A stretch of DNA of 64,000 nucleotides. Origin: Escherichia phage pEC-M719-6WT.1. Shown piece after piece: positions 51,001-63,754 of this stretch. The notes under the pieces are model-generated. The model was not told where the DNA came from. It worked only from the letters and a program-made list of their open reading frames with translations, and did no database searches. The position numbers were made by a program, and so were the translations under genes. Each line of letters begins with the position of its first letter. The stretch's first letter is position 1. The stretch is from the sequence record OQ845957.1; one strand, given 5' to 3'.

Positions 51001-51882
51001 ATGAAAACTATTATTAGCGTACTGTTGCAATCACAGAAAAAAGGTGCTTACCAAGAAGAGTTCAACATTATCCAGTTCCCGTCTGGAGAAATTGGTGGTA
51101 ACTTCCCTGAAGACCTTGTAACCTATGCTGAAGAGAACGCTTCCCAGATTGAGAACGTAATCTTCACTGTACGGGGTTACGACAAAGACACTCTGTTTGC
51201 TTTAGCTCTGGCAAAAGAGGCAATCGACAAAATGATTCCTCAGAAAGCAACTATGAAGACTGTCATCTTTGCTTATCTTCCAAATGCTCGATATGACCGT
51301 CACATGTTTAAAGGTGATGCAGCAGCACTGAAAGTGTTTGCTAATCTGGTTAATGCAATGGATTTTGATGCAGTATGTGCTCTGGATGCTCACAGTGACG
51401 TTGCAGACAACCTGTTCAAATGCTTCCAGAACATCCATCAAAAAGATGTTGCAGCACACTATGCCAGTGAGCCTACCATTGATTTCTTGGTAGCACCAGA
51501 TGCAGGGGCAGCTAAGAAGATTGCAGAGACCGCTAAAGAGGTTGATAAGCCTTATGTAACAATGGCTAAGGTTCGAGACCTGAAGACTGGTGAGATTACG
51601 GGTATGCGTCTCCTTGATGATGTAGACCTGACTGGTAAAACTGTGCTAATCATTGATGATATCTGTGATGGTGGTCGTACATTCATCGAAGCAGCTAAGT
51701 ATCTACGTGAAGCTGGAGCAGCTAAAGTTGAATTGTATGTAACACATGGTATTTTCTCAAAAGGTGTTGAAAACCTGCTTGACAATGGGATTTCACACAT
51801 CTACACTACAGACTCTTTAGGTAGTGCAAAAGACCGTGGCATTACTCATTTCGGTCAAGTAACTGTAGCAAACATTGAATAA
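51001..51882 (+). CDS. Ribose-phosphate pyrophosphokinase (PRPP synthetase) family protein; candidate ADPR-pyrophosphate synthetase of a NAD+ reconstitution pathway
   Basis: Prs-like motifs FPSGEIGG, AYLPNARYDR, ALDAHS, VAPDAGAAKK, VLIIDDICDGGRTF. Confidence 0.8.
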   Translation: MKTIISVLLQSQKKGAYQEEFNIIQFPSGEIGGNFPEDLVTYAEENASQIENVIFTVRGYDKDTLFALALAKEAIDKMIPQKATMKTVIFAYLPNARYDRHMFKGDAAALKVFANLVNAMDFDAVCALDAHSDVADNLFKCFQNIHQKDVAAHYASEPTIDFLVAPDAGAAKKIAETAKEVDKPYVTMAKVRDLKTGEITGMRLLDDVDLTGKTVLIIDDICDGGRTFIEAAKYLREAGAAKVELYVTHGIFSKGVENLLDNGISHIYTTDSLGSAKDRGITHFGQVTVANIE

Positions 51883-51929
51883 AAACTTTAAAGGGGCTGC
51901 ATAGCCCCCACTTTGAGAGAGACAAGAAG

Positions 51930-53756
51930 ATGACTAAATCAATCTACGCAGTTCCAGCAGGTCTTAATGCAGATGCCTACAAAGCAGGTCACGTCTACCA
52001 GTATCCAAGTGCTACACAGTATTTGATGCTGAACCTTACACCTCGTGGTGATAAGTGGTTTAACAGCCCCTTAGAAGTTGACGGTGTAGTTGCTTTCGGT
52101 ATTCAACGTTTCGTTAAAGATTACTTAGTAGACCATTGGAACGAAACTTTCTTCGAACGTGATAAGAAAGAGGCTGTTGATGAAATCTTGGAAATCATGA
52201 ATGGTGTTCTTGGTGCAGATGCTATCAAGCGTCATCATTGGGAAGAACTTCACGACTTGGGTTATCTGCCAGTTGCAGTGTACTCTGTTGAAGAAGGTAC
52301 AATCGTTCCTATGCGTGTTCCAATGATTATCTTCAAAAATACCGTTGAAGGTTTCCATTGGGTAGCTGGTTATCTGGAAGATGCTTTCTCTGCTGAAATC
52401 TGGAAAGCTTGTACCATTGCCACTATTGCACTGCATTACAAACGTATCTGTAAGTCTTGGGCTGAGAAGACCTGTGACAATGACTTCCATCTTCCTTGGC
52501 AGTGTCATGACTTTGCAATGCGTGGTATGTCTGGCTTCACAGATGATGCTTTCAATGCTGTAGGTCACCTGACCAGCTTTAAAGGCACTGATAGCTTCCC
52601 TGCTGTGTATACTGCTAAACGTGCATATGGTCAGTTCATGACTGTAAGTGATATTGGTAACTCTGTTCCAGCAACTGAACATTCCGTTATGTGTGCAAAC
52701 ATTTCATGGAATATGAAAGACCTGACAGAAGATAACATTCACTCACAGTACATCATGCAGTCTGATAGCTTGCTGGATGCTAAACGCTGGCGTGGAGAGG
52801 TTCAAACCTTTAAGCACCTGCTGGTAGATGTTTACCCAACTGGTATTGCAAGTGTTGTGTCCGATACTTACAACTTCTGGCGTACAGTTACAGAGATTCT
52901 TTCAGAACTCCGTGAAGTAATCTTGAATCGTGATGGTAAGCTGGTAATCCGTCCAGATTCTGGTGACCCTGTACACATTGTTACTGGTTATCGTGCAATT
53001 GAATGGGAAAATGCTAAGAGCATGTATTACAAACACATGGCAACCATTTCTCCTGACAATACTTATCTGCTTGATGCAATCTTGAATTGTAACATGACAG
53101 ATATGGGTTACGGTTTCTCTGCTTGGCTAATCTCTGAAGGTTATGAGTTAGTTGTTGATGCAGAAGACTTTAACGTTGCCGATACAGTTAACCTGAAAGA
53201 GACTTACAAGACTGGTAAAGTTGTTGTTAAACGTATGCTGACAGCAGAAATTGATGGTGCTATCAAGACTCTGTACAACATCTTTGGAGGCACTGTAAAC
53301 TCTAAAGGTTACAAAGTTCTTGATGAACACATTGGCTTAATCTACGGTGATTCTATCACTCTGGAACGTGCTGAAGAGATTCTTAGCCGTCTTGCTGAAA
53401 AGGGCTTTGCAAGTTCTAACGTTGTCTTTGGTGTTGGTTCATACACTTACCAGTACCTGACTCGTGATACCTTTGCATTCGCTGTTAAAGCAACTCTTGC
53501 ACAGATGGATGGTGAAGAAATCATGCTGGCAAAAGACCCTAAAACTGACAGTGGTCTGAAGAAGTCTGCTTTTGGTGGTGTAGTCCCTATGTGGGATGGT
53601 GATAAGCTGGAAGCTGTAGATGGTTTTGGTTTTGCAGAGTTTGAAAGTGTACTGGATAACCCTCAGTGTGCTCTGAAGCTGGTATTCTGTGACTCTCAGC
53701 CATATGGCTACGTTAACCTTTGTGATGTACGAAATGTTATTGACAGAGAGCTTTAA
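51930..53756 (+). CDS. Nicotinamide phosphoribosyltransferase (NAMPT/NadV) family protein
   Basis: 608 aa; N-terminal DAYKAGHVYQYP resembling NAMPT DSYKVTHYKQYP signature; adjacent to Prs-like gene. Confidence 0.8.
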   Translation: MTKSIYAVPAGLNADAYKAGHVYQYPSATQYLMLNLTPRGDKWFNSPLEVDGVVAFGIQRFVKDYLVDHWNETFFERDKKEAVDEILEIMNGVLGADAIKRHHWEELHDLGYLPVAVYSVEEGTIVPMRVPMIIFKNTVEGFHWVAGYLEDAFSAEIWKACTIATIALHYKRICKSWAEKTCDNDFHLPWQCHDFAMRGMSGFTDDAFNAVGHLTSFKGTDSFPAVYTAKRAYGQFMTVSDIGNSVPATEHSVMCANISWNMKDLTEDNIHSQYIMQSDSLLDAKRWRGEVQTFKHLLVDVYPTGIASVVSDTYNFWRTVTEILSELREVILNRDGKLVIRPDSGDPVHIVTGYRAIEWENAKSMYYKHMATISPDNTYLLDAILNCNMTDMGYGFSAWLISEGYELVVDAEDFNVADTVNLKETYKTGKVVVKRMLTAEIDGAIKTLYNIFGGTVNSKGYKVLDEHIGLIYGDSITLERAEEILSRLAEKGFASSNVVFGVGSYTYQYLTRDTFAFAVKATLAQMDGEEIMLAKDPKTDSGLKKSAFGGVVPMWDGDKLEAVDGFGFAEFESVLDNPQCALKLVFCDSQPYGYVNLCDVRNVIDREL

Positions 53757-61006: not shown

Positions 61007-61333
61007 ATGGAGTTGAACGGTAAAACCTTTGTAGCTGTCATTCAAGATAGTGAAAAAGATATTGGTGTAGCACAAGTCACATATGGTAACGGTGAGTTCC
61101 TTTATGGTGTTGTGGCAATGGTTGGTACAAGAGGTGACACACCAACCTTTCATGATTGTGTAGATAAACTCGAAGAGTCTGTCAGGAATTATTGGTGTCT
61201 TATCTGGATGAATGAGAAAGATATCAAAGAGCGATATGCTAAACTCGGTATTGACATTGCTGGCATAGAACATGTAGACTTGTATGAGTTGACAGAGAAA
61301 GTTCTCTTTGAAAAAGGTAAAGAAAATGGCTGA
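61007..61333 (+). CDS. Hypothetical protein
   Basis: 108 aa ORF with GAAGAGG RBS. Confidence 0.5.
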   Translation: MELNGKTFVAVIQDSEKDIGVAQVTYGNGEFLYGVVAMVGTRGDTPTFHDCVDKLEESVRNYWCLIWMNEKDIKERYAKLGIDIAGIEHVDLYELTEKVLFEKGKENG

Positions 61334-61526
61334 TTTTTGCAAAGACTGCTCTATCGAAATGTTTGGACGTGACACAGGAGACTTGAAAGGTCTTATCTCT
61401 GAAGAAGAGTTCAAAGCTGGTTATGCTATGCCAACACTCTGTGAAGGTTGTGGTGGAATCTGGGTAGACCACGAAGGACAGCGCGTGAAGCCTTCTAAAG
61501 ATAAAGAATCATGGGAGAAATGGTAA
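61326..61526 (+). CDS. Small cysteine-containing protein
   Basis: ATG at 61326; CKDC...CEGCGG pairs; ORF-track start at 61308 is TTG. Confidence 0.45.
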   Translation: MADFCKDCSIEMFGRDTGDLKGLISEEEFKAGYAMPTLCEGCGGIWVDHEGQRVKPSKDKESWEKW

Positions 61527-61527
61527 A

Positions 61528-62310
61528 ATGGGTATTGTAAAAGTCATCAAAGGTGATATCTTCGCAGACTTTGAGAAAGGTAAGTTTGATATCATCGGTC
61601 ACGGTTGTAACTGTATGAATCTGATGGGTGCAGGTATTGCTGACAAGATTTCTAAGGGCTACCCAAAAGCCTATGAAACTGATGCTGAAGTCTACCGTGT
61701 AGCAGGAGGAAGAGAGCATAAACCTTGTCAGAAACTGCTTGGTAAACTCTCTGTAGCACGTCTTAAACAAGGCCGTATTGCTAACCTGTACACTCAGTTG
61801 AAGACTGGTAAAGATGCTCGCTATGATGCTCTTGAGAGCGCTCTGTTGAGCCTTAACCAGTACTGCAAAGTGAATAGACTGAAGAAAGTTGGGCTTCCAA
61901 TGATTGGTGCAGGGATTGGTGGGCTTGACCCGAAAGCTGTTGTGGTGATTATGAATCACATCCTGAAAGATGTTGATGTTTACCTTTACGTGTTTGAAGA
62001 GGCAATGTTTAATACTCTGTCAACATGGGGTAATCACAGTGAGCCACAATACTTTGCAGGTGTAGCCGTTGTCAACGAAGATGGAGTTACCCTCTTCAGG
62101 CATCGCCAGTACAAGGTACATCGGAGTAACCCTCCGGTTGAGCGAATGTCTCTAAGTAACGCTCAAGTTACCCCGCCGTTGAAAGGTAGTATGCAACGTG
62201 CAGTGACATTTGGAAGTGAACCTGATGTGTACATTCTTGCAGCAAATGAGAAAGATGCTGAAGCAATTATAGACATTTCTAATATCAAGTTCTTAGCTGC
62301 AAAGAACTAA
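61528..62310 (+). CDS. Macro-domain protein (ADP-ribose binding/processing) with ~110 aa C-terminal extension
   Basis: N-terminal GDIFA...DIIGHGCNCMNLMGAGIADKI and later GLPMIGAGIGGLDP resemble macro-domain glycine-rich ADP-ribose binding loops. Confidence 0.6.
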   Translation: MGIVKVIKGDIFADFEKGKFDIIGHGCNCMNLMGAGIADKISKGYPKAYETDAEVYRVAGGREHKPCQKLLGKLSVARLKQGRIANLYTQLKTGKDARYDALESALLSLNQYCKVNRLKKVGLPMIGAGIGGLDPKAVVVIMNHILKDVDVYLYVFEEAMFNTLSTWGNHSEPQYFAGVAVVNEDGVTLFRHRQYKVHRSNPPVERMSLSNAQVTPPLKGSMQRAVTFGSEPDVYILAANEKDAEAIIDISNIKFLAAKN

Positions 62311-62343
62311 GAAACTCTGTAGCATATTCACAATAGACTAAGC

Positions 62344-62387
62344 CTTTCTTATCTGGTGAATTTTCAGGTAAGGAGGGCTTTTTCATT
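62344..62387 (+). terminator. Rho-independent terminator
   Basis: 13-bp stem CCTTTCTTATCTG/CAGGTAAGGAGGG (with G-U pairs) followed by CTTTTTC. Confidence 0.5.
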
Positions 62388-62578
62388 TTAAAATTGTGCA
62401 GGTAAAAGTCTGGACAGAAATCTGTAGAGAAAATTTTGAACTCCAAAGGGAAAATTCATTTTCAATTTGTGCAGGTGGACTCCAAAGAGATTTTTCATTT
62501 TCAAAACGTGCAGTCCCGGCGAGTGTCGGGCAAGAAAAATCATTTTAGAATTGTGCAGGTAGGTGGGTGCAGGTGGGG
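62382..62578. repeat. Array of four ~22-bp repeats TTCATTTT-N-AATTGTGCAGGT plus extra GTGCAGGT copy
   Basis: Copies at 62382-62403, 62455-62476, 62494-62515, 62539-62560; irregular spacing 73/39/45 bp. Confidence 0.75.
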
Positions 62579-62738
62579 ATGCCACCATTTCTCACAAGGC
62601 TACCACATCTGAAAAGAAAAGTCAACAGAAAAATTTGTAGTGGATTGAAAAATAATTCTTGATTGTAGTTCTGTTTTGTGATAGTTGCATGTGCCCGTCT
62701 CATTACAGTTTTTGCAAAAAATATTTTTAAAAATTTGC

Positions 62739-62767
62739 TTGACCTGTAAAACAAAGGCGTTTAGTAT
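62739..62767 (+). promoter_or_regulatory. Sigma70-like promoter TTGACC-N17-TAGTAT, bracketed by inverted repeat TGCCCGTCT/AGACGGGCA
   Basis: Direct reading; AT-rich UP-like tract upstream; inverted repeat arms at 62692-62700 and 62775-62783. Confidence 0.55.
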
Positions 62768-62816
62768 TTGCATCAGACGGGCAAGCAAGCCCACTTCCTA
62801 AACTGGAGATTCCAAA

Positions 62817-63023
62817 ATGTTATATCAACGCCAATTGATGATTGTAGACAATAACAAGACTAAAAAGCGCCGTTTCTTTATGCTTATCTGTGACGTGTGG
62901 CAAAGAATATCAGAAAAAGATTTTGATAAGTATGTTGATACGTCTATCAAGTCAGATTGTTACTTGACAAATCACACAAGACAGTTTACAAGACATACAG
63001 CAATTTACTACTATGACGTTTAA
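62817..63023 (+). CDS. Small early-type hypothetical protein
   Basis: 68 aa; conserved leader CTAAACTGGAGATTCCAAAATG. Confidence 0.5.
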   Translation: MLYQRQLMIVDNNKTKKRRFFMLICDVWQRISEKDFDKYVDTSIKSDCYLTNHTRQFTRHTAIYYYDV

Positions 63024-63202
63024 AAGGTCTTGACAATGATTAAAGAAGACTATGTAATAAAATACAAAGGTAGTGACGGATACACAAAAATAGGTCGCGT
63101 CTTCTACCTTTACAAGTCAGTTACGGGTAATGACTGCATAGCTCTAACAAATGGCGACAAAATAACCATGAAAGATTTTATAAAAATTATTTCATAAAGT
63201 AC

Positions 63203-63231
63203 TTTACATGGGGTTTAGAGTTCGATAGTAT
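63203..63231 (+). promoter_or_regulatory. Sigma70-like promoter TTTACA-N17-TAGTAT overlapping hairpin TGGGGTTTA/TAAGCCCCA
   Basis: Direct reading; same -10 hexamer and spacing as 62739 promoter. Confidence 0.55.
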
Positions 63232-63281
63232 AAGCCCCAGATAAAGAGCTTTACCAACAATCCTAAACTGGAGAATCTAAA

Positions 63282-63665
63282 ATGAAAAAATACTACATGC
63301 CTAAATTCATCAAAAAAGAAAACTTTCGTGGTGCTCTGGAAAAATCTATGGGCGAACAATTCAAAGGCAAAATAATTGTTGTACACGCATATAATTTTAA
63401 GTATGATGTAAATGGTAACAAGATAAACCACTATAAAGCTACACTGTTAGATGGTACACTCTCAGGAGAAAAGGCTGTTATCCATGCACTTGCAGGACGT
63501 GGTAAGACGCTAATCCGTTGCGATAAACGCCGCTATCAAGGTAGTGCTTACGGTTATGAGGATGCAATCTATCATCTTGATAATATGGGTTACAACGTGG
63601 TAAAAGCTGGAGTATCCCAAATGATTGGTAGTGATGGTTACGTAACAATCTTTGAAATTAACTAA
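63282..63665 (+). CDS. Early-type hypothetical protein
   Basis: 127 aa; conserved leader CTAAACTGGAGAATCTAAAATG. Confidence 0.55.
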   Translation: MKKYYMPKFIKKENFRGALEKSMGEQFKGKIIVVHAYNFKYDVNGNKINHYKATLLDGTLSGEKAVIHALAGRGKTLIRCDKRRYQGSAYGYEDAIYHLDNMGYNVVKAGVSQMIGSDGYVTIFEIN

Positions 63666-63673
63666 TAAAGTGC

Positions 63674-63702
63674 TTTACATGGGGTTTATAAATTGCTAGT
63701 AT
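63674..63702 (+). promoter_or_regulatory. Sigma70-like promoter TTTACA-N17-TAGTAT overlapping hairpin TGGGGTTTA/TAAGCCCCA (second copy)
   Basis: Near-identical to 63203 module. Confidence 0.55.
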
Positions 63703-63754
63703 AAGCCCCAGATAAAGAACTTTATCCAACAACCTAAACTGGAGATTCAAAAAA

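What the first reader, a model, noticed from the sequence alone, without database searches (positions are those of the whole stretch)
61528..62310. Macro-domain protein with an uncharacterised C-terminal extension near the NAD-salvage and lysis genes
The N-terminal ~150 aa carry macro-domain hallmarks (GDIF... HGCNCMNLMGAGIADKI; GLPMIGAGIGGLDP). The C-terminal ~110 aa have no recognisable motif. Macro domains bind or hydrolyse ADP-ribose conjugates. In a phage this points to reversal of host ADP-ribosylation-based defence or toxin activity (DarT-like DNA ADP-ribosylation, ART toxins) or processing of ADPR-derived signals. It could also connect functionally to the candidate ADPR-consuming pathway at 51001-53756.
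Basis: partly seen in the sequence, partly recalled or inferred. Interest (0 to 1): 0.65.

Follow-up and report, generated by a model that had tools for sequence, protein, structure and literature searches.

The report
Two-domain phage macrodomain counter-defence enzyme
This Felix O1-like phage gene encodes a real ADP-ribose-processing (macro) enzyme of a phage subfamily recently shown to defeat bacterial defences, here fused to a fast-evolving extra domain found nowhere else, and its exact target is still untested.

Summary
ORF 61528-62310 (+, 260 aa) has an N-terminal macrodomain (Pfam E=5.8e-8; confident AF2 model; TARG1 TM 0.88) and a C-terminal ~100-aa beta-rich domain with no sequence or fold match.

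The window is a Suspvirus/Felix O1-like phage. The macro half belongs to a phage subfamily (PHROG 335; motifs H-x-x-N, D, Y-T/G-Q, GxGxxGxD). Two members were characterised in 2025-26. T4 Tk.4 is AdfM, needed against DarTG2. Vibrio phage Gary Adpp is an ADPR-1''-phosphate phosphatase that feeds the NARP1 NAD+ pathway against aRES.

The window protein is about equally distant from both (29-36% identity). It keeps the Adpp/Poa1p His and lacks the DarG/TARG1 catalytic Lys. The phage carries NARP1 7.8 kb upstream (77% identical to the validated Bas63 enzymes).

The C-terminal domain occurs only fused to this macro type in Felix O1-like phages (9 hits in 1.84 billion proteins). It is under purifying but relaxed selection and is probably a non-catalytic adaptor.

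Which substrate matters in vivo is unresolved. I lean slightly to AdfM-like removal of ADP-ribose from DNA, with Adpp-in-trans a close rival. It is a new architectural variant of a known kind, directly testable in Bas63 (gene 95).

The parts
61528..62310 (+). Complete CDS, 260 aa: two-domain macro protein (ortholog of SUSP2 gp090 and Bas63 gp95 'putative phosphatase')
   Evidence: ORF list. PHROG 335 E=6e-99 over aa 1-259. 98% identical protein cluster P0001. Orthologs annotated in SUSP2 and Bas63.
61528..61995 (+). Macrodomain, aa 1-156. Key residues are H25, N28, Gly loop 1 (M33-G-A-G-I-A38), D52, T89-Q90 and Gly loop 2 (G127-A-G-I-G-G-L-D134).
   Evidence: Pfam PF01661. PDB profile hits to TARG1 and DarG. 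Foldseek TARG1 TMt 0.88, Poa1p, DarG. Invariant columns. Site table.
61996..62307 (+). C-terminal orphan domain, aa 157-260: a linker helix (158-165), then 6-7 beta strands and one helix
61513..61517 (+). Shine-Dalgarno-like GGGAG, 10 nt before the ATG
   Evidence: Read directly from the sequence.
61326..61526 (+). Upstream 66-aa CxxC...CxxC (zinc-ribbon-like) ORF whose stop lies 1 nt before the macro ATG; possible partner
   Evidence: Conserved and coupled in Suspvirus, Felixounavirus, Mooglevirus and metagenomic L005; 85% identical to Bas63 gp94. No Pfam match.
62340..62380 (+). Terminator-like hairpin plus T-run that ends the co-directional gene block
51001..51882 (+). Adps (PRPS-like ADPR pyrophosphokinase) of NARP1; possible functional partner 7.8 kb upstream
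   Evidence: TIGR01251 match. 76.8% identical to Bas63 gp79, which was validated experimentally.
51930..53756 (+). Namat (NAMPT-like nicotinamide ADPR transferase) of NARP1; possible functional partner
   Evidence: NF006629 match. 77.2% identical to Bas63 gp80. Literature.

Best explanation
The gene encodes a counter-defence ADP-ribose hydrolase. SHOWN: the N-terminal 156 aa form a macrodomain of the Poa1p/TARG1/DarG clade. More precisely, it belongs to the phage 'Tk.4/Adpp' subfamily (H-x-x-N, invariant Asp, Y-T/G-Q, two Gly-rich loops). INFERRED from the motifs: it binds ADP-ribose and cleaves whatever is attached to the distal ribose C1''. LEADING SUBSTRATE (inferred): ADP-ribose placed on phage DNA by DarT2-type toxins, or on another macromolecule, as for its relative T4 Tk.4/AdfM. 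The chemistry would use His/Asn/Asp rather than the Lys of DarG. The C-terminal ~100 aa form a non-catalytic, fast-evolving adaptor that is rigidly packed on the macrodomain, probably next to substrate loop 2. INFERRED: it targets the enzyme to its substrate or to a host defence protein. The same active site very likely also dephosphorylates ADPR-1''-phosphate in vitro, so a contribution to NARP1 is not excluded (see first rival). Confidence is about 0.8 that it is an active ADP-ribose-conjugate hydrolase used in counter-defence, and about 0.4 (the figure given as this explanation's confidence) for the DNA/macromolecule substrate as the main in-vivo role.
For: Macro fold and family membership.

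Same motif set as T4 Tk.4 (34-36% identity), which is required for T4 to resist DarTG2.

The best defence-library hits are the DarG models: PADLOC 1.3e-12 and NCBIfam 1.3e-11.

N28 corresponds to PhiKZ AdfM N23 and DarG N22, both shown to matter for DNA de-ADP-ribosylation.

In Kolesnikvirus orthologs the Adpp-type His is replaced by Gln although NARP1 is retained. This argues against a purely phosphatase role.

The gene is 13 genes away from NARP1, whereas known Adpp genes sit inside the operon.

The extra domain is under purifying but 3-30-fold relaxed selection. It is hypervariable between genera, as expected for a macromolecule-contacting module.

The macro half is strongly basic (pI 9.4, +8.7), unlike the acidic Adpp proteins.

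pTM 0.87 indicates a fixed two-domain arrangement.

The conserved Trp after loop 2 is lost in 11/11 two-domain proteins but kept in 17/17 single-domain relatives.
Against: The residue equivalent to the DarG K80 / TARG1 K84 catalytic Lys is an invariant Gln (Q90), and the DarG W83 equivalent is Thr. K80A inactivates DarG.

Base-linked ADPr hydrolysis has so far been seen only in Lys-bearing TARG1-like macrodomains.

The T4 Tk.4 evidence is genetic only and comes from a preprint.

In the tree the protein does not fall in the Tk.4 clade and is clearly separated from DarG/PhiKZ AdfM.

The C-terminal domain shows no similarity to the DarG C-terminal region.

The net-charge trend is not consistent across the family.

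No Felix O1-like phage has been tested against DarTG.
Confidence: 0.4

Rival explanations
1. Adpp acting in trans. The macrodomain is an ADPR-1''-phosphate phosphatase. It converts the product of RES-type NAD+ phosphorolysis (aRES), and possibly ADPR-1''P arising from ADPR-PP / ADPR-cyclic-phosphate decay, into ADPR. The phage's own NARP1 (Adps + Namat, 7.8 kb upstream) then rebuilds NAD+ from that ADPR. Felix O1-like phages would thus run 'NARP1-AP' with an unlinked phosphatase.
For: H25 aligns with Adpp H24 (H24A abolishes anti-aRES activity) and with Poa1p H23.

The whole motif set H/N/D/Q is shared with the biochemically proven Vibrio phage Gary Adpp and with the Pakpunavirus Adpp proteins, at 29-36% identity.

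The phage carries NARP1 that is 77% identical to the validated Bas63 enzymes.

NARP1 and this gene are co-inherited in a conserved block in every relative examined.

15% of NARP1 operons carry this type of macro gene, and that survey looked only within +/-2 genes, so it would have missed this one.

ADPR-PP decays to ADPR-cyclic-phosphate in Bas63 infections.

A relative (P0025) fuses this macro type to a cyclic-phosphate-processing cREC domain.

The absence of the DarG catalytic Lys fits a phosphatase better.
Against: The gene is not in the NARP1 operon; it is 13 genes downstream.

All 2026-catalogued Adpp proteins are single-domain, 150-170 aa.

The His is replaced by Gln in Kolesnikvirus orthologs that retain NARP1.

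The same subfamily is abundant in T-even phages that lack NARP1.

A small-molecule phosphatase has no obvious need for a fast-evolving extra domain.

Identity to the tested Gary enzyme is only 29%.
Confidence: 0.3
2. Signal or conjugate scavenger. The macrodomain binds or degrades ADPR-derived immune signals or other ADPr conjugates. Candidates are His-ADPR or gcADPR of Thoeris, O-acetyl-ADPR, and ADP-ribosylated RNA or protein such as CmdT-modified mRNA. DNA adducts and ADPR-1''P would not be its main substrates.
For: Macrodomains bind His-ADPR in Thoeris II effectors and are generally promiscuous towards C1''-linked ADPr conjugates. Some orthologs are annotated O-acetyl-ADP-ribose deacetylase. 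TARG1-clade enzymes also act on RNA uracil-ADPr. The basic surface is compatible with RNA.
Against: No member of this subfamily has been shown to have such an activity. The conserved catalytic-type residues (N28, D52, H25) argue for an enzyme rather than a sponge. No literature hit links Felix O1-like phages to these systems.
Confidence: 0.12
3. Housekeeping RNA-repair helper. As with yeast Poa1p after tRNA splicing, it would clear ADPR-1''P generated by a 2'-phosphotransferase during phage tRNA repair, working with the nearby polynucleotide kinase.
For: Poa1p-like motifs. A PNK gene lies 2.3 kb upstream in all relatives.
Against: No RNA ligase, Tpt1/KptA or 2H phosphoesterase is annotated in the SUSP2 or Bas63 regions examined. 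From established knowledge, T4-type PNK/ligase repair does not create a 2'-phosphate junction.
Confidence: 0.03

Closest known systems
T4 Tk.4 = AdfM (anti-DarT factor Macrodomain; HIDEN-SEQ preprint 10.1101/2025.11.20.689424)
   Same: Same phage macro subfamily (PHROG 335). It shares H-G-C-N-C, the invariant Asp, N-L-Y-T-Q and the Gly-rich loop 2, at 34-36% identity over the macro half.
   Different: Tk.4 is single-domain (155 aa) and keeps the Trp after loop 2. It forms its own clade (100% bootstrap) that excludes the window protein, and it sits in a phage without NARP1. Its biochemical activity has not been shown.
Adpp, the ADPR-1''-phosphate phosphatase of NARP1-AP (Vibrio phage Gary KNV71_gp137; preprint 10.64898/2026.01.28.702374)
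   Same: Same subfamily motifs, including the His whose mutation (H24A) kills function. In both cases the phage encodes NARP1.
   Different: Adpp genes lie inside the Adps-Namat operon, are single-domain and acidic, and carry Y-G-Q and GGDW. The window gene is 13 genes away, two-domain and basic, and carries Y-T-Q and GGLD-P. Identity is 29% to Gary and up to 36% to the Pakpunavirus proteins.
DarG antitoxin macrodomain (T. aquaticus 5M31/5M3E, M. tuberculosis 5M3I) and the DarG-like PhiKZ gp104 AdfM
   Same: Same macro clade and same loop-2 length (GxGxGGLD). The Asn equivalent to DarG N22 / PhiKZ N23 is conserved. Both are two-domain layouts with a macrodomain followed by a C-terminal domain.
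   Different: The catalytic Lys is Gln and the stacking Trp is Thr. The H position is N or I in DarG/PhiKZ. Identity is 21-23%. The window protein is separated from them in the tree (DarG+PhiKZ 99%). Its C-terminal domain is unrelated to the DarG CTD by HMM, and its score is far below the NCBIfam DarG cut-off (44 vs 250 bits).
Human TARG1/OARD1 (4J5R/4J5S) and yeast Poa1p (6LFQ-6LFU)
   Same: These are the best structural matches (TARG1 TMt 0.88, Poa1p 0.77). Poa1p's H23 corresponds to H25.
   Different: TARG1 K84 and D125 align with Q90 and G131. Both proteins are eukaryotic, single-domain and not involved in phage defence.

Membership tests
Macro domain superfamily (Pfam PF01661) | Sequence match above the curated threshold | tested here: met
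   33.1 bits against a cut-off of 22, E=5.8e-8, aa 25-142
Macro domain superfamily (Pfam PF01661) | Three-layer alpha/beta/alpha macro fold | tested here: met
   AF2 pLDDT 89.6. Foldseek: TARG1 E=5.8e-11 with TMt 0.88, then Poa1p and DarG.
Macro domain superfamily (Pfam PF01661) | ADP-ribose binding or hydrolysis | not testable with these tools
   Only inferred, from the conserved Asn and the two Gly-rich loops.
Phage Tk.4/Adpp macro subfamily (PHROG 335) | Profile match plus the shared motif set H-x-x-N, Asp52, Y-T/G-Q, GxGxxGxD | tested here: met
   PHROG 335 E=6e-99. Site table: H/N/D/Q identical to T4 Tk.4 and Gary Adpp. The subfamily separates from DarG/TARG1 with 78% bootstrap.
T4 Tk.4-type AdfM | Falls within the Tk.4 clade; single-domain ~155 aa | tested here: not met
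   The Tk.4 clade (100%) excludes it; the protein is two-domain, 260 aa.
T4 Tk.4-type AdfM | Required for phage growth on DarTG2 hosts | not testable with these tools
   Needs a deletion phage. No published data for Felix O1-like phages.
DarG / DarG-like AdfM (PhiKZ gp104) | Catalytic Lys (DarG K80 = TARG1 K84) | tested here: not met
   Invariant Gln (Q90) in 21/21 family members. K80A is inactive.
DarG / DarG-like AdfM (PhiKZ gp104) | Active-site Asn (DarG N22, PhiKZ N23) | tested here: met
   N28 is invariant.
DarG / DarG-like AdfM (PhiKZ gp104) | Trp proposed to stack on the modified thymine (DarG W83) | tested here: not met
   Thr or a variable residue at that column.
DarG / DarG-like AdfM (PhiKZ gp104) | C-terminal DarT-binding domain, and a score above the DarG equivalog cut-off | tested here: not met
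   The PADLOC DarG profile matches only positions 17-146 of 329. NCBIfam DarG scores 44 bits against a cut-off of 250. The C-terminal half alone gives no DarG hit.
Adpp (NARP1-AP phosphatase) | Poa1p-type catalytic His (Adpp H24, Poa1p H23) | tested here: met
   H25 is present in 20/21 family members; it is Gln in the Kolesnikvirus clade.
Adpp (NARP1-AP phosphatase) | Gene embedded in, or within 2 genes of, the Adps-Namat operon | tested here: not met
   It lies 7.8 kb / 13 genes downstream on the same strand. The definition is given.
Adpp (NARP1-AP phosphatase) | Phage encodes NARP1 | tested here: met
   Adps is 76.8% and Namat 77.2% identical to the validated Bas63 enzymes.
Adpp (NARP1-AP phosphatase) | ADPR-1''P to ADPR activity; rescue from aRES | not testable with these tools
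   The aRES phage panel contained no Felix O1-like phage.

The most novel reading that the evidence does not exclude
The orphan C-terminal domain is an independently evolved defence-protein-binding module, for example one that binds DarT2, an aRES-type NADase or another ADP-ribose-handling effector. The protein would then neutralise a host system twice, by enzymatic reversal and by direct inhibition. This would be analogous to DarG's macrodomain plus toxin-binding domain, but with an unrelated fold. Its hypervariability between phage genera would record an arms race with the host target. In this picture Felix O1-like phages, including the NARP1 model phage Bas63, would also run an unlinked 'NARP1-AP'.
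Probability: 0.15. Interest if true: 0.7.

Novelty: new variant of a known kind. Interest (0 to 1): 0.45.

Why it matters
Macrodomains are emerging as a general viral answer to NAD+/ADP-ribose-based immunity. Within one year the same phage subfamily was assigned two different jobs: DNA de-ADP-ribosylation against DarTG2, and ADPR-1''P dephosphorylation against aRES. The Felix O1-like version sits exactly between them. It has the phosphatase-type His, lacks the DarG-type Lys, and belongs to a phage lineage that invented or carries NARP1. It also has an extra domain seen nowhere else.

Working out its substrate would show whether this subfamily is bifunctional. It would show whether NARP1 phages can use an unlinked phosphatase, which the published +/-2-gene survey would have missed. 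It would also show what a lineage-specific adaptor adds to a macrodomain. The answer bears on host range of Felix O1-like phages, which are used for Salmonella and E. coli typing and therapy. Bas63 (gene 95) already has the genetic tools for the test.

Tried and rejected
**Searches for the C-terminal domain**
- The word-index search with the C-terminal 104 aa alone found nothing. The exhaustive profile search replaced it.
- Two long proteins hit by the C-terminal profile (P0036, P0037) are repetitive, so their summed scores are spurious. The 114-aa and 54-aa hits are fragments of the same family.
BFVD was used instead and was uninformative.
- The idea that the C-terminal domain equals the DarG toxin-binding domain was rejected at HMM level. 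No profile-profile test against DarG C-terminal domains was run.
- Similarity to aRad1-type aRES inhibitors is unsupported, because the exhaustive profile search found no outside relatives.

**Tree**
- The first tree script timed out.
- The second gave NaN distances and meaningless bootstraps. It was corrected.
- Even then the backbone inside the phage subfamily is unresolved, so the tree cannot assign the protein to the AdfM or the Adpp side.

**Other partners and artefacts**
- A phage-encoded ADP-ribosyltransferase partner, or a tRNA-splicing-type source of ADPR-1''P, is not supported. No ART, RNA ligase, Tpt1, Nudix or 2H enzyme is annotated in SUSP2 or Bas63.
- A fusion artefact or frameshift was rejected. 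The continuous 246-269-aa ORF is conserved in all relatives and both halves have dN/dS below 1.

**Literature**
- Searches for Felix O1-like phages tested against DarTG or aRES found nothing.

**Side check**
- An Rfam scan of the downstream gap found nothing credible.

Full report
**Observation**

The ORF exists exactly as reported: ATG at 61528, stop at 62308-62310, + strand, 260 aa. It has a GGGAG ribosome-binding site 10 nt upstream. Its start lies 1 nt after the stop of a 66-aa Cys-rich ORF. Pfam's Macro model matches aa 25-142 above threshold (E=5.8e-8). PHROG 335 ('phosphatase') matches the whole length (E=6e-99).

A profile built from 21 full-length homologs hits human TARG1 (4.6e-11) and the DarG antitoxin macrodomains of M. 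tuberculosis and T. aquaticus (8.6e-10, 3.4e-7). Nothing in the PDB matches the last ~100 residues.

The AlphaFold2 model is confident (pLDDT 89.6, pTM 0.87). Foldseek aligns only its first ~155-180 residues to TARG1 (TM 0.88), Poa1p and DarG.

**Genomic setting**

The window is a Felix O1-like myovirus, closest to Suspvirus SUSP2 and CHB7 (~92% nt identity). The gene is the last of a long co-directional block: Adps-Namat (51001-53756), rIIA, rIIB, an SLT-like ORF, polynucleotide kinase, spanins, several small ORFs, then the macro gene. A terminator-like hairpin follows at 62340-62380.

The same order is found in every relative examined:
- Felixounavirus TP1, C600M2 and Bas63
- Mooglevirus Maleficent
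- Kolesnikvirus SunLIRen
- three metagenomic relatives whose macro protein is only 35-45% identical

 The gene is therefore a stable component of this phage lineage, and its nearness to lysis genes is just synteny.

The prs-like/NAMPT-like pair is NARP1. That pathway was discovered in Bas63 genes 79-80. Bas63 is a Felixounavirus, and the window's proteins are 76.8% and 77.2% identical to the Bas63 enzymes. Bas63 gene 95 ('putative phosphatase', 261 aa) is the ortholog of the protein studied here. It is 69% identical overall, 81% in the macro half and 52% in the C-terminal half.

**What the macro half is**

tblastn finds macro-only matches in ~2,760 phage records, but full-length matches in only ~264, all Felix O1-like. 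The T-even matches lie next to the vs gene. In T4 itself that gene is tk.4 ('phosphatase, A1pp motif').

Two recent studies give functions to members of this group.

1. A transposon screen found tk.4 to be the single T4 gene needed on DarTG2 hosts and named it AdfM. A clean knockout was sensitised.
2. Osterman et al. showed that a macro protein inside 15% of NARP1 operons (Adpp, from Vibrio phage Gary) dephosphorylates ADPR-1''-phosphate. That compound is the product of the RES-domain defence aRES. Removing its phosphate lets NARP1 work, and H24A abolishes the effect.

A third protein also named AdfM, PhiKZ gp104, removes DarT2 ADP-ribose from DNA in vitro.

I aligned the window protein with ten two-domain relatives, Tk.4 from T4 and Sf22, eight Adpp sequences from the paper's Table S1, eight other single-domain homologs, PhiKZ gp104, two DarG macrodomains and TARG1. 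The site table splits them cleanly.

| Window position | Two-domain family, Tk.4 and Adpp | DarG / PhiKZ gp104 |
|---|---|---|
| H25 (Poa1p H23, Adpp H24) | His | Asn / Ile |
| N28 (DarG N22, PhiKZ N23) | Asn | Asn |
| D52 | Asp | Tyr |
| Q90 (DarG K80, TARG1 K84) | Gln | Lys |
| T93 (DarG W83) | variable | Trp |

- DarG K80 is the main catalytic residue, and K80A is inactive.
- Base-linked ADP-ribose hydrolysis has so far been found only in Lys-bearing TARG1-like enzymes.

A neighbour-joining tree separates the phage H/N/D/Q subfamily from DarG, PhiKZ gp104 and TARG1 (78% bootstrap). It joins PhiKZ gp104 to DarG (99%). The window protein falls neither in the Tk.4 clade (100%) nor in the Adpp clades, and the backbone is unresolved. 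Identity over the macro half is:
- 34-36% to Tk.4
- 29-36% to Adpp proteins
- 21-23% to DarG and PhiKZ gp104

 The protein scores far below NCBIfam's DarG equivalog cut-off (44 vs 250 bits).

So it is not a DarG-type enzyme. It belongs to the subfamily that contains both T4 AdfM and Adpp, and sequence alone cannot say which of the two it resembles functionally.

**The C-terminal half**

Modelled alone, it is a small beta-rich domain: six to seven strands and one helix, with pLDDT 79 overall and ~85-90 in the core. Every comparison came back empty:
- no Pfam match in any of 17 members
- no PADLOC match
- BFVD: only the SUSP2 ortholog

An exhaustive HMMER profile search of 1.84 billion representative proteins returned nine hits. 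These were the two-domain family itself, two fragments of it and two spurious repeat proteins. The domain therefore exists only fused to this macro type in Felix O1-like phages.

It is real coding sequence under purifying selection (pairwise dN/dS 0.16-0.45). It is 3-30 times more relaxed than the macro half (0.01-0.2). Its protein identity falls to ~20% where the macro half is still ~45% identical. In Kolesnikvirus the equally long extension is no longer detectably related (hhalign probability 0.2%). Only three positions are nearly invariant (P173, G178, Y235), and none is a typical catalytic residue. I therefore take it to be a non-catalytic adaptor.

Two observations suggest that it packs against the macrodomain close to the substrate-binding loop 2. 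This is an inference, not a demonstrated contact.
- The full-length pTM is 0.87, and the linker helix is confident only in the full-length model.
- The Trp that follows loop 2 is present in 17/17 single-domain subfamily members, in DarG and in TARG1. It is replaced by small or aliphatic residues in 11/11 two-domain proteins, and also in a relative that carries a different C-terminal domain (P0025, macro + cREC 'cyclic-phosphate processing' domain).

**Weighing the mechanisms**

For an Adpp-like role:
- the His is present and the DarG Lys is absent
- NARP1 is present and always co-inherited with this gene
- the published Adpp survey looked only within two genes of NARP1 and would have missed this gene
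- ADPR-PP decays to a cyclic phosphate during Bas63 infection
- a relative carries the cREC fusion

Against an Adpp-like role, and for an AdfM-like or other macromolecular substrate:
- the gene is 13 genes from NARP1
- every catalogued Adpp is single-domain and acidic, whereas this macro half is strongly basic (pI 9.4), although the charge trend is not uniform across the family
- the His is replaced by Gln in Kolesnikvirus orthologs that keep NARP1
- the subfamily is most abundant in T-even phages that have no NARP1
- a fast-evolving extra domain makes more sense for an enzyme that must engage a macromolecule or a host protein

No Felix O1-like phage has been tested against DarTG or aRES.

My estimates are:

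| Claim | Probability |
|---|---|
| Active ADP-ribose-conjugate hydrolase used for counter-defence | ~0.8 |
| Main role is removing ADP-ribose from DNA or another macromolecule (AdfM-like) | ~0.4 |
| Physiologically relevant Adpp-in-trans role | ~0.3 |
| Other ADPR conjugates or signals | ~0.12 |
| Housekeeping RNA-repair role | ~0.03 |

The two leading roles are not mutually exclusive, because many macrodomains show ADPR-1''P phosphatase activity in vitro (established knowledge).

**Novelty and verdict**

The gene has long been annotated as 'phosphatase', 'macro domain protein' or 'O-acetyl-ADP-ribose deacetylase', so the macrodomain itself is not new. Two things are new:
- the placement of the Felix O1-like protein inside the Tk.4/Adpp subfamily, with the DarG mechanism excluded
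- the recognition that its C-terminal half is an orphan, lineage-restricted, fast-evolving domain

I rate it a new variant of a known kind, of moderate interest. The deciding experiments are simple and can be done in Bas63.

Noticed in passing
window 62383-62558 (within the non-coding gap 62311-62816): Four direct copies of a 19-bp motif, TCATTTT-N6-GTGCAG, spaced 39-73 nt apart. They occur nowhere else in the 64-kb window (0 of 100 shuffles reach 4 copies). The cluster is conserved at the same place just downstream of the macro gene in SUSP2 (4), Bas63 (4), TP1, Maleficent, SeBD_211 and C600M2 (3 each) and a distant metagenomic relative (1). It has no Rfam match. It may be a protein-binding array, iterons or a phage-specific promoter cluster. 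In Bas63 two tiny minus-strand ORFs are annotated over it.
   Followed up: partly
window 61326-61526 (+): A 66-aa CxxC...CxxC (zinc-ribbon-like) ORF is translationally coupled to the macro gene, with its stop 1 nt before the ATG. The pair is conserved in Suspvirus, Felixounavirus (Bas63 gp94, 85% identical), Mooglevirus and one 45%-identity metagenomic relative. It is replaced by unrelated small ORFs in other relatives. It has no Pfam match and could be a partner of the macro protein.
   Followed up: partly
window 63184-63282, 63655-63753 and 62790-62817: A repeated ~99-nt unit precedes successive small + strand ORFs downstream. It consists of a TTTACA-17-TAGTAT promoter-like site, a GGGGTTTA...TAAGCCCC hairpin and a conserved CCTAAACTGGAGAxTC-AAAATG ribosome-binding/start region. 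This looks like a series of individually promoted early genes.
   Followed up: no
L009 8290-9072 (Erwinia phage SunLIRen gp14) and protein P0021: Kolesnikvirus orthologs have Gln instead of the Poa1p/Adpp-type His (AQGCNC). Their C-terminal ~105 aa are no longer detectably related to the domain in the window protein, while NARP1 and the synteny are retained.
   Followed up: yes
protein P0025 (339 aa, metagenomic): A relative of the same macro subtype (GGLD-P loop, no Trp) is fused to a Pfam cREC_REC 'cyclic-phosphate processing receiver' domain. This suggests that some members of this group process ADPR cyclic or 1''-phosphates.
   Followed up: partly
window 51001-53756: The 'ribose-phosphate pyrophosphokinase' and 'nicotinamide phosphoribosyltransferase' genes are the NARP1 enzymes Adps and Namat (77% identical to the validated Bas63 proteins). 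Database product names for this pair in Felix O1-like phages are therefore functionally misleading.
   Followed up: yes
L014 40624-41124 (SUSP2 gp057, 'NAD synthetase', 166 aa) and gp059 (MazG-like): Further nucleotide/NAD-related annotations occur in the replication module of the closest relative. The 166-aa 'NAD synthetase' is too short for a canonical NadE and may be misannotated.
   Followed up: no
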